A DNA stretch of 3,240 nt, from assembly GCF_003334255.1 (NCBI RefSeq), contig NZ_QOWU01000124.1; one strand, written 5' to 3'. Below the pieces are notes generated by a model, which was not told the origin of the DNA, did not search any database, and saw nothing but the letters and a program-made list of their open reading frames with translations. Made by a program: the position numbers and the translations under genes. This DNA is from Escherichia coli (lineage in GTDB: Bacteria; Pseudomonadota; Gammaproteobacteria; Enterobacterales; Enterobacteriaceae). This document shows positions 490-1,422 of this stretch, in pieces. Each line of letters opens with the position of its first letter. Position 1 is the first letter of the stretch.

Positions 490-1422
490 TTATGCCGGGT
501 TTTTATAATTTTTCTTAATGTTTTCCGCACGTTCTGCTTTTTGGCGTGCTTCTGCTTTACGCTTATTGCTCATGTCGTTACGAATCTGTGCATGACTCAT
601 TAACGCGAAGATAAAGGTGCCGCCGCAGATGTTCCCCGCTAAAGTAGGTAGTGCGAAGGGCCAGATGAAATCGCTCCAGTGCAGCGTACCGTTAAACACC
701 AGATAGAGGATTTCAACAGAACCGACCACGATATGGGTGGTGTCACCCAGGGCAATAAGCCAGGTCATCAATATAATCACCACAATCTTTGCCGCACCCG
801 CTGCAGGAAACATCCAAACCATAGTGGCGATCAGCCAGCCGGAAATGATCGCGTTGGCAAACATCTCGCTGGGGGTGTTCTTCATCACATCCATGCCGAT
901 TTTGACAAATGCATCGCGAGTTTCTTCATTGAAGATAGGCATATATTCAAATGCCCACGCCGCAATACCTGTCCCGAGAATATTACCCAGCAGCACGACG
1001 CCCCATAACCGTATAAGTAAGCCGACGTTGCTCATTGTCGGTTTTTGCATGACGGGTAGTACCGCAGTCACGGTATTTTCGGTAAATAATTGCTGGCGGG
1101 CCATAATGACGATAATAAAACCAAAGGTATAACCGAGATTCTCCAGCAAGAAGCTGCCCGGCACACCTTCCAGTTCGACTTGAAATATCCCTTTTGCCAG
1201 TAACGAAGCGCCCATCGACAGACCCGCCGCAATGGCTGACCACAGTAGCGCCATTGCGTCGCGTTCCAGCTCTTTTTCACCATCCTGGCGGATATGCTCA
1301 TGAATTGCCATCGCCCGGGAGGGGAGTCGGTCTTCATCTATTTCTATTTTTTTGCCGCGCTCTTTTTCTTCGCTCTCAACTTCAATTTCGTCGCTGTGTT
1401 GATCAATTTTGTCGTTGTCCAT
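490..1422 (-). CDS. yfdC: Formate/nitrite transporter (FNT) family inner-membrane protein YfdC, 310 aa
   Basis: Complete 933-nt ORF from ATG (1420-1422) to TAA (490-492). The translation (MDNDKIDQHSDEIEV...NYKNPA) matches E. coli YfdC as I recall it, with a hydrophobic multi-helix FNT-like core. A purine-rich SD-like GAGAAGAGA lies just upstream of the ATG. It is divergent from mlaA, as in K-12. Confidence 0.93.
   Translation of the reverse strand: MDNDKIDQHSDEIEVESEEKERGKKIEIDEDRLPSRAMAIHEHIRQDGEKELERDAMALLWSAIAAGLSMGASLLAKGIFQVELEGVPGSFLLENLGYTFGFIIVIMARQQLFTENTVTAVLPVMQKPTMSNVGLLIRLWGVVLLGNILGTGIAAWAFEYMPIFNEETRDAFVKIGMDVMKNTPSEMFANAIISGWLIATMVWMFPAAGAAKIVVIILMTWLIALGDTTHIVVGSVEILYLVFNGTLHWSDFIWPFALPTLAGNICGGTFIFALMSHAQIRNDMSNKRKAEARQKAERAENIKKNYKNPA

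What the first reader, a model, noticed from the sequence alone, without database searches (positions are those of the whole stretch)
490..1422. YfdC has long charged terminal extensions around its FNT core
The translation shows a roughly 55-residue highly acidic N-terminal segment (MDNDKIDQHSDEIEVESEEKERGKKIEIDEDRL...EKELERD) and a roughly 30-residue basic C-terminal tail (RNDMSNKRKAEARQKAERAENIKKNYKNPA) flanking the hydrophobic channel core. In FNT channels such as FocA the N-terminal helix gates the pore, so an extended charged N-terminus suggests a distinct gating or interaction mode. The substrate of YfdC is, to my knowledge, not established. This is an understudied protein rather than a new system.
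Basis: partly seen in the sequence, partly recalled or inferred. Interest (0 to 1): 0.3.

Follow-up and report, generated by a model that had tools for sequence, protein, structure and literature searches.

The report
YfdC channel's charged cytoplasmic tails
The E. coli membrane protein YfdC, an uncharacterised relative of the formate and nitrite channels, really has an acidic N-terminal tail and a basic C-terminal tail, but the long N-terminus was already published as a hallmark of its subfamily, so this is an understudied known protein, not a new system.

Summary
Window 490-1422 (-) encodes E. coli YfdC, identical to K-12 b2347. Residues 1-55 hold 20 acidic and 10 basic residues (net -10). 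Residues 281-310 hold 10 basic and 4 acidic (net +6). The upstream start is not an artefact. It is the first possible start in the frame, the frame stays open in 79 of 80 orthologous loci, and the alternative start Met38 is Ala in about half of them. Residues 14-36 are under purifying selection (pN/pS 0.14 against 0.095 for the core).

The N-terminus has three parts: a variable stretch (1-13), a conserved acidic motif (V-E-S-E-E…G..I-E-V-D-E..L-P-S, 14-35), and the canonical FNT N-helix (36-52). AlphaFold2 models the C tail as a straight continuation of TM6 to residue 307.

A long pre-TM1 segment is normal for the YfdC subfamily (median 52 aa) and was reported in 2017. The basic C tail is specific to the Enterobacterales/Halomonadaceae clade and is conserved in composition only.

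The gating idea remains an analogy with FocA. No operon partner and no charge covariation between the tails were found. Low novelty; the conserved acidic motif is a modest new detail.

The parts
490..1422 (-). yfdC coding sequence (310 codons plus stop at 490-492), a YfdC-alpha type formate/nitrite-transporter-family protein
   Evidence: ORF list. Identical to K-12 b2347. PF01226 E 7.8e-49. RefSeq annotation in 4286 or more E. coli genomes.
1384..1422 (-). Codons 1-13: variable, acidic N-terminal stretch that models poorly
   Evidence: Mean identity to E. coli 25% across 80 loci. pN/pS 0.44. pLDDT 44-50 for residues 1-10.
1318..1383 (-). Codons 14-35: conserved acidic motif E-V-E-S-E-E-K-x-x-G-x-x-I-E-[VI]-D-E-x-x-L-P-S
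   Evidence: Across 80 loci: V15 79%, S17 84%, E19 94%, G23 78%, I26 90%, E30 93%, L33/P34/S35 96-99%. pN/pS 0.14 for codons 14-36. pLDDT rises to 76 with an orthologue-rich alignment, mostly non-helical.
1252..1317 (-). Codons 36-57: canonical FNT N-terminal amphipathic helix (36-52) and linker to TM1, with family-wide near-invariant G48, E51 and R54
   Evidence: Inside the Pfam match. Helix 36-52 at pLDDT of about 83-95. Near-invariant columns. Aligns with FocA G23, K26, K29. pN/pS 0.026 for codons 37-57.
583..1251 (-). Codons 58-280: six-TM FNT channel core with T114 (omega loop), H230 (central His), E115 and E237 (vestibule Glu), G195
   Evidence: AF2 pLDDT above 90. Foldseek TM-score 0.70-0.86 to HSC, PfFNT and FocA. 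Residue correspondences.
493..582 (-). Codons 281-310: basic Lys/Arg/Ala/Glu-rich C-terminal tail, predicted as a continuous helical extension of TM6
   Evidence: Net +6. Helix 249-307 with pLDDT 87-97. Sequence variable (28% identity, pN/pS 0.48) but net positive in 92% of 80 orthologues, median +4. Not amphipathic, muH 0.12-0.27.
1426..1435 (-). Purine-rich Shine-Dalgarno-like stretch (AAGAGAAGAG) 3 nt upstream of the ATG
   Evidence: Read from the sequence. There is no in-frame ATG/GTG/TTG between the upstream stop and this ATG.

Best explanation
Shown or strongly supported:
- yfdC encodes a genuine 310-residue inner-membrane protein with the FNT fold, of the YfdC-alpha subfamily, and translation starts at the annotated ATG.
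- By homology with solved FNTs, both termini lie in the cytoplasm.
- The N-terminus has three parts: a variable acidic leader (1-13), a conserved acidic, mostly non-helical motif (14-35) under purifying selection, and the canonical FNT N-terminal helix (36-52).
- The C-terminus is a rigid, highly charged, net-basic helix that simply prolongs TM6 about 30 residues into the cytoplasm. It is selected for composition and not for sequence.

Inferred mechanism:
- The acidic motif and the N-helix together form the cytoplasmic cap of each pore, as the N-terminal domain does in FocA. There they would act as a gate, or as a docking site for a still unknown cytoplasmic partner.
- With five copies per pentamer, the acidic segments would add strong negative potential at the cytoplasmic mouth. 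This fits the pore-lining Glu115 and Glu237 and the missing vestibule Lys, features that led others to predict YfdC conducts neutral or cationic solutes and not anions.
- The basic C-terminal helix most likely acts as a charge-based stalk, either anchoring topology by the positive-inside rule or contacting lipid headgroups or the N-terminal cap. It is probably not a sequence-specific element.
For: Identity and fold:
- PF01226 E 7.8e-49 over residues 40-277.
- AF2 pLDDT 92, pTM 0.86-0.87.
- Foldseek hits to HSC, PfFNT and FocA, probability 1.00, TM-score 0.70-0.86.
- T114 and H230 are conserved; K156 of FocA is replaced by V179; E115, E237 and G195 are present. This matches published YfdC-alpha signatures (PMC5525234, bioRxiv 10.1101/637116).

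Start codon:
- No upstream in-frame start exists.
- The frame is open and alignable back to residue 14 in 79 of 80 loci.
- Met38 is conserved in only 50% of loci and is Ala in Pantoea, Serratia, Yersinia and Erwinia. Met57 is conserved in 68%.
- Kosakonia and Pseudescherichia keep the extension behind a GTG start.
- pN/pS is 0.14 for codons 14-36, against 0.095 for the core.

Motif and family traits:
- Per-position conservation of the motif.
- A [VIA][DE][DE] triplet lies 3-16 aa upstream of the N-helix in 16 of 47 diverse representatives, against 3.2 expected from shuffles.
- The pre-TM1 segment has median length 52 aa and is net negative in 81% of 59 representatives.
- The C tail is net positive in 92% of 80 orthologues.

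FocA precedent:
- The N-terminal helix is required for translocation and cross-links to PflB.
- The critical FocA residues Y25, K26, T28 and K29 align with YfdC K50, E51, E53 and R54, of which E51 and R54 are near-invariant (PMC12559229, PMC11841067).

Expression:
- The protein has been detected by mass spectrometry (PMC6414554).
- The gene belongs to the RcsB regulon (PMC2731931, PMC3599342).
Against: - No experiment or multimer model places residues 1-35 relative to the pore. Only monomer AF2 summaries without coordinates were available.
- The published MD work that predicts non-anion selectivity left the N-terminal region out.
- No conserved neighbouring gene suggests a partner. mlaA is adjacent in only 34 of 80 loci, and the ccm operon takes its place elsewhere.
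- Residues 1-13 and 285-310 evolve fast (pN/pS 0.44-0.48), so a large part of both tails may carry no specific function.
- pS values are near saturation (0.6-1.1), so the ratios are rough.
- Mukherjee et al. 2017 found no subfamily-specific charge pattern in the termini.
Confidence: 0.55

Rival explanations
1. The tails are largely non-functional decoration. They would be low-complexity charged cytoplasmic extensions tolerated on a membrane protein, with a basic C tail that merely satisfies the positive-inside rule and no role in gating or partner binding.
For: - Residues 1-13 and 285-310 are poorly conserved (25-28% identity; pN/pS 0.44-0.48).
- C-tail length ranges from 0 to 55 aa among orthologues and is 0-2 aa in Salinicola and Budvicia.
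- Across the wider family the C tail is short (median 11 aa) and not basic.
- The 2017 survey saw no conserved residues or charge pattern in the termini.
Against: - Residues 14-35 are as constrained as the core (pN/pS 0.14; E19, I26, E30 and L33-P34-S35 at 90-99%).
- The C tail keeps a net positive charge in 92% of orthologues despite sequence turnover.
- N-terminal acidity is family-wide, with 81% of representatives net negative.
Confidence: 0.25
2. The acidic N-terminal segment and the basic C-terminal helix bind each other electrostatically, within or between protomers. This would form a cytoplasmic latch that opens and closes the channel.
For: - The charges are opposite (-10 and +6) and both termini are cytoplasmic.
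- Residues 11-30 reach pLDDT 76 in a monomer model where the only nearby cytoplasmic element is the C-terminal helix.
Against: - Net charges of the N and C tails do not covary across 79 orthologues (Spearman rho 0.02, p 0.87).
- The acidic motif persists where the C tail is absent or tiny (Salinicola, Budvicia, Shimwellia).
- No coordinates or PAE were available to check for contact.
Confidence: 0.12
3. The N-terminal extension is an annotation artefact, and the real protein starts at an internal Met (Met38 or Met57).
For: In-frame ATG codons exist at residues 38 and 57. Database entries for orthologues disagree on starts, with lengths from 292 to 380 aa.
Against: - Met38 is replaced by Ala in about half of the orthologues and Met57 is variable.
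- The upstream frame is open and conserved at the protein level in 79 of 80 loci, with pN/pS 0.14.
- A purine-rich SD-like sequence precedes Met1.
- A start at Met57 would remove the N-helix that is conserved across FNTs and covered by the Pfam model.
Confidence: 0.02

Closest known systems
YfdC-alpha subfamily of the formate/nitrite transporter family (TCDB 1.A.16.4.1; Mukherjee et al. 2017, PMC5525234)
   Same: This is the type member. The sequence is identical to K-12 YfdC, with a long N-terminal segment, E115/E237/G195 and no vestibule Lys, as published.
   Different: Nothing differs in kind. I add three points: residues 14-35 form a conserved, selected acidic motif in the gammaproteobacterial clade; G48, E51 and R54 are near-invariant family-wide, whereas the 2017 paper reported no conserved residue in the termini; and the basic C tail is clade-specific.
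FocA (E. coli formate channel; PDB 3KCU, 9G49)
   Same: Same predicted fold (Foldseek probability 1.00, TM-score about 0.69-0.78). Conserved T91/H209 equivalents. A cytoplasmic N-terminal helix with a conserved Gly (G23 in FocA, G48 in YfdC). In FocA this helix is needed for translocation and binds PflB.
   Different: About 25% core identity. The FocA pre-TM1 segment is 32 aa with net charge 0, and its C tail is 10 aa. FocA has K156, E208, N213 and N172, which YfdC lacks. focA is co-transcribed with pflB, whereas yfdC has no conserved partner gene. YfdC scores 44 bits against the TIGR04060 cut-off of 290.
NirC and FocB (the other E. coli FNT paralogues), HSC/FNT3 and PfFNT
   Same: Pfam family and fold.
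   Different: Short N-termini that are neutral or basic (25-32 aa, net +2 to +6) and short C-termini (8-22 aa). They are documented or inferred anion or weak-acid channels, whereas YfdC is computationally predicted not to pass anions.

Membership tests
Formate/nitrite transporter family (Pfam PF01226, TCDB 1.A.16) | Significant full-length match to the family profile | tested here: met
   PF01226 i-Evalue 7.8e-49, model positions 2-239 of 240, residues 40-277. A profile search against PDB hits FocA, HSC, PfFNT and LCIA at 1e-13 to 1e-18.
Formate/nitrite transporter family (Pfam PF01226, TCDB 1.A.16) | Aquaporin-like six-TM fold with broken TM2 and TM5 half-helices | tested here: met
   AF2 model with pLDDT 92 and breaks at 107-113 and 225-231. 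Foldseek TM-score up to 0.86 to HSC and 0.76-0.78 to PfFNT and FocA. This is a prediction, not a solved structure.
Formate/nitrite transporter family (Pfam PF01226, TCDB 1.A.16) | Conserved omega-loop Thr and central S-loop His (FocA T91, H209) | tested here: met
   T114 and H230 align to them and are 90% or more conserved in 118 family sequences.
Formate/nitrite transporter family (Pfam PF01226, TCDB 1.A.16) | Periplasmic-vestibule Lys (FocA K156) with its Glu208/Asn213 partners, which attract anions | tested here: not met
   V179, T229 and G234 occupy the aligned positions, in agreement with bioRxiv 10.1101/637116. This bears on anion function, not on fold membership.
Formate/nitrite transporter family (Pfam PF01226, TCDB 1.A.16) | Homopentamer that conducts monovalent anions or their acids | not testable with these tools
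   No multimer prediction or transport assay was available, and no YfdC-subfamily structure is in the PDB.
FocA equivalog (NCBIfam TIGR04060) and fnt subfamily (TIGR00790) | Score above the curated cut-off | tested here: not met
   44.2 bits against a cut-off of 290.1, and 53.8 bits against 232.3. YfdC is not a FocA orthologue.
YfdC-alpha subfamily (Mukherjee et al. 2017) | Glu at FocA S92 and M216 positions, Gly at N172, aromatic at L79 and N254, Tyr/aliphatic/His/Val central constriction | tested here: met
   E115, E237, G195, F102, F256 and Y98/L222/H230/V233. E115, E237 and H230 are at least 90% conserved and G195 is invariant in 118 sequences.
YfdC-alpha subfamily (Mukherjee et al. 2017) | Long N-terminal segment before TM1 (42-55 aa on average, against 25-32 in other FNTs) | tested here: met
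   57 aa in E. coli YfdC, with a median of 52 in 59 representatives at the 50% identity level. Published figure from PMC5525234.

The most novel reading that the evidence does not exclude
The conserved acidic motif at residues 14-35 (V-E-S-E-E…I-E-V-D-E..L-P-S) would be a short linear docking or auto-regulatory element. It would couple an Rcs-induced, non-anion-conducting FNT channel to an unknown cytoplasmic partner or signal, much as the FocA N-terminus couples to PflB. That would make the YfdC subfamily a regulated neutral- or cation-solute channel built on an anion-channel fold.
Probability: 0.25. Interest if true: 0.45.

Novelty: already known. Interest (0 to 1): 0.2.

Why it matters
YfdC is one of the orphan transporters that remain in E. 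coli. It heads the largest uncharacterised branch of the FNT family, with 361 YfdC-alpha members in the 2017 survey.

Three results narrow the constructs worth making for structural and functional work. The N-terminal extension is truly translated. Roughly 20 of its residues are under selection. The C tail is conserved only in composition.

The practical stake is modest. A SNP in Salmonella yfdC (A61T, near TM1) was enriched under pantetheinamide selection, and FNTs are considered drug targets. Nothing here changes how the family is understood.

Tried and rejected
- Gene neighbourhood as a clue to a partner. I clustered ORFs from 80 loci. Only mlaA (34 loci, Enterobacteriaceae) or the ccm operon (Erwiniaceae, Yersiniaceae) lie upstream and divergent, and integrases lie downstream at the argW hotspot. 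There is no conserved operon partner.\n- Charge compensation between the N and C tails. None was found (rho 0.02).\n- C tail as a membrane-surface amphipathic helix. Rejected: muH is 0.12-0.27 and the mean hydrophobicity is strongly negative.\n- Extra Pfam or NCBIfam domains in the tails. None.\n- Solved structure of a YfdC-type protein. None; the nearest are FocA, HSC and PfFNT.\n- Rfam families in the window. Only sub-threshold chance hits.\n- Hairpin at 1507-1529 in the yfdC leader or intergenic region. It occurs only in E. coli loci and the fold z-score is 0.17, so I dropped it.\n- Reading where residues 14-35 dock in the AF2 models. A second broad query added only the RcsB regulon reference.

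Full report
**What is in the window**

The window is E. coli chromosome. It matches thousands of complete genomes over about 98% of its length, at 97.8-99.9% identity among the listed hits. From left to right it holds:
- the 3' end of a giant prophage gene (1-268, +);
- a 24-nt stump of argW (391-414, -);
- yfdC (490-1422, -);
- mlaA (1716-2471, +);
- the 3' part of yfdF (from 2653, -), cut off at 3165 by an IS1 end.

The yfdC product is identical to K-12 YfdC/b2347.

**Observation**

The charge description is accurate. Residues 1-55 contain 20 Asp/Glu and 10 Lys/Arg, net -10. Residues 281-310 contain 10 Lys/Arg and 4 Asp/Glu, net +6. The 220-residue core has only 21 charged residues.

Pfam PF01226 covers residues 40-277 (E 7.8e-49). 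A MAFFT alignment with the three E. coli paralogues gives these segment lengths:

| Protein | Pre-TM1 segment (aa) | Pre-TM1 net charge | C tail (aa) |
|---|---|---|---|
| YfdC | 57 | -10 | 33 |
| FocA | 32 | 0 | 10 |
| FocB | 32 | +6 | 8 |
| NirC | 25 | +2 | 22 |

One refinement is needed. Residues 36-57 are not an extension. They are the canonical FNT N-terminal helix and linker, and YfdC G48 aligns with FocA G23. The YfdC-specific addition is about 35 residues.

**Is the start codon right?**

- The annotated ATG is the first ATG/GTG/TTG after the upstream in-frame stop. It is preceded by AAGAGAAGAG three nucleotides upstream.
- In 80 orthologous loci from Enterobacterales, Halomonadaceae and Alcanivoracaceae, the reading frame upstream of the N-helix is open and alignable back to E. 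coli residue 14 in 79.
- The internal alternatives are not conserved. Met38 is kept in 50% of loci and is Ala in Pantoea, Erwinia, Serratia and Yersinia. Met57 is kept in 68%. Kosakonia and Pseudescherichia lack an ATG at the N-terminus and keep the same peptide behind a GTG.
- Nei-Gojobori counts against 18 Enterobacteriaceae are shown below. Synonymous sites are near saturation, so the ratios are rough, but the ranking is clear.

| Codons | pN/pS |
|---|---|
| 2-13 | 0.44 |
| 14-36 | 0.14 |
| 37-57 | 0.026 |
| 58-277 (core) | 0.095 |
| 285-305 | 0.48 |

The extension is therefore coding, and part of it is constrained.

**Anatomy of the tails**

Across the 80 loci, residues 14-35 form a conserved acidic motif. 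Conservation is V15 79%, S17 84%, E19 94%, G23 78%, I26 90%, E27 78%, D29 70%, E30 93%, and L33/P34/S35 96-99%. Residues 1-13 are variable.

In 59 diverse representatives at the 50% identity level, the pre-TM1 segment has a median length of 52 aa. It is net negative in 81%, with a median of -3. G48, E51 and R54 are near-invariant.

A weaker family-wide trace of the acidic motif also exists. A [VIA][DE][DE] triplet lies 3-16 residues upstream of the N-helix in 16 of 47 representatives, against 3.2 expected from composition-matched shuffles.

The C tail behaves differently. Family-wide it is short and not basic, with a median of 11 aa and net -1, and only 8% reach +4 or more. In the gammaproteobacterial clade it has a median of 23 aa beyond residue 284. 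It is rich in K/R/A/E/Q and net positive in 92% of loci (median +4). Its sequence is not conserved, at 28% identity. It is missing or tiny in Salinicola, Budvicia and Shimwellia, which still keep the acidic motif.

**Structure prediction**

Two AlphaFold2 runs, with alignments of 60 and 118 sequences, gave pLDDT 92.3 and 92.5 and pTM 0.86 and 0.87. Both predict helix 36-52, the six-TM core with the two broken helices, and one continuous helix 249-307. The C tail is thus modelled as a straight cytoplasmic prolongation of TM6, with pLDDT 87-97.

Residues 1-20 have pLDDT below 50 in the first run. With more orthologues, residues 11-30 rise to 76 but stay mostly non-helical. That suggests a defined but extended conformation.

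The tail helix is not amphipathic (muH 0.12-0.27). It carries seven i/i+3 or i/i+4 opposite-charge pairs, like a soluble charged single helix. Foldseek against the PDB returns only FNTs: HSC, PfFNT, FocA and LCIA, at TM-scores of 0.70-0.86. No YfdC-type structure has been solved.

**What is already known**

Mukherjee et al. 2017 (PMC5525234) defined the YfdC-alpha and YfdC-beta subfamilies. They reported that these have the longest N-terminal segments among prokaryotic FNTs, 42-55 aa against 25-32. They also reported that FocA and YfdC-alpha have the longest C-termini. They saw no specific charge pattern or conserved residue in the termini.

[quoted passage not shown] It lacks the vestibule Lys and carries Glu115 and Glu237. 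That study omitted the N-terminal region. My alignment reproduces those residue correspondences.

On expression, yfdC is listed in the RcsB regulon and is induced by colicin M (PMC2731931, PMC3599342). The protein is detectable by mass spectrometry (PMC6414554). A yfdC A61T SNP was enriched in pantetheinamide-resistant Salmonella. The substrate is still listed as unknown.

**How it most likely works**

Fold membership, cytoplasmic termini (by homology with solved FNTs) and a selected acidic motif adjoining the N-helix are shown or strongly supported.

The function of the motif is inferred from FocA. There, the N-terminal helix lies flat on the cytoplasmic face and is required for translocation. 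It undergoes order-disorder transitions coupled to the C-terminus, and it cross-links to PflB through Y25, K26, T28 and K29 (PMC12559229, PMC11841067). Those positions align with YfdC K50, E51, E53 and R54.

My preferred reading has two parts. First, the acidic motif and the N-helix form a cytoplasmic cap that gates the pore or docks a partner. It would also reinforce a negative potential at the cytoplasmic mouth, in line with the predicted non-anion selectivity. Second, the basic C helix acts through charge and shape and not through sequence.

I tested two more specific ideas and found no support.
- A conserved partner gene: none. mlaA is adjacent only in Enterobacteriaceae, and the ccm operon takes its place elsewhere.
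- An obligatory N-C electrostatic latch: there is no charge covariation (rho 0.02), and the motif persists without the C tail.

**Verdict**

The protein is a known, annotated, understudied member of a known family, and the long N-terminus is a published subfamily trait.

The small increments here are:
- proof that the extension is translated and selected;
- its three-part anatomy;
- the conserved acidic motif and the near-invariant G48, E51 and R54;
- the finding that the basic C tail is clade-specific and conserved in composition only.

Interest is low (0.2) and the novelty class is 'already known'.

Noticed in passing
window 391-414 (-), with 1-268 (+): Only the first 24 nt of tRNA-Arg(CCU) argW remain downstream of yfdC. 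They are identical to K-12 and then diverge, and ARAGORN finds no tRNA in the window. The adjoining DNA is the end of an 8.4-kb 'LPD38 domain' gene. In strain G1/2 this is the last gene of a prophage spanning at least about 48 kb, with lambdoid-type regulation and lysis genes and an N4-gp56-type capsid. I did not check whether an intact argW copy sits at the far end.
   Followed up: partly
window 3165-3240: The window ends in the terminal 76 nt of an IS1 element (100% match, annotated as IS1A/IS1B, median 10 copies per genome). It interrupts yfdF in this strain. The best-matching genomes have intact yfdF and match only up to position 3164-3167.
   Followed up: yes
window 1507-1529, both strands: A GC-poor hairpin flanked by T-runs on both strands (terminator-like in both directions) lies between the divergent yfdC and mlaA genes, about 85 nt upstream of the yfdC ATG. 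It is present only in the E. coli loci. The surrounding 138 nt fold no better than shuffles (z 0.17).
   Followed up: partly
window 1604-1631 (+): The best sigma-70-like match in the window (TGGACA-16-TACAAT, extended -10 TG) lies 85 nt upstream of mlaA. A preprint reports an IS1 insertion 39 bp upstream of mlaA, in this same yfdC-mlaA spacer, in a chlorhexidine-adapted strain.
   Followed up: no
orthologues P0001, P0010, P0073; loci L022, L026, L027, L037, L041: Database start sites for YfdC orthologues are inconsistent, with 292, 341 and 380 aa versions of about 310-aa proteins. Kosakonia, Pseudescherichia and some Enterobacter orthologues have no N-terminal ATG and must start at GTG to include the conserved acidic motif.
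   Followed up: partly
YfdC residues 48, 51, 54 (window 1261-1281, -): G48, E51 and R54 are at least 90% conserved across 118 diverse YfdC-family sequences. This contrasts with the published statement that no residue is conserved in FNT terminal regions. They align with FocA G23, K26 and K29; G23 is reported highly conserved, and K26 and K29 are reported crucial for translocation in a region cross-linked to PflB.
   Followed up: partly
P0134 (383 aa representative): Its 162-residue N-terminal region looks like the C-terminal half of another FNT copy (…LTHVVAGSVE…LPVLLGNILGGTA…) fused ahead of a complete YfdC-like core. phmmer reports two matched stretches. It could be a tandem duplication or fusion, or an assembly artefact.
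   Followed up: no
loci L006-L085: The divergent mlaA-yfdC arrangement is confined to Enterobacteriaceae (34 of 80 loci). In Erwiniaceae and Yersiniaceae the divergent upstream neighbour is the ccm cytochrome-c maturation operon. P4-type integrases follow yfdC in 14 loci, which fits argW being an integration hotspot.
   Followed up: yes
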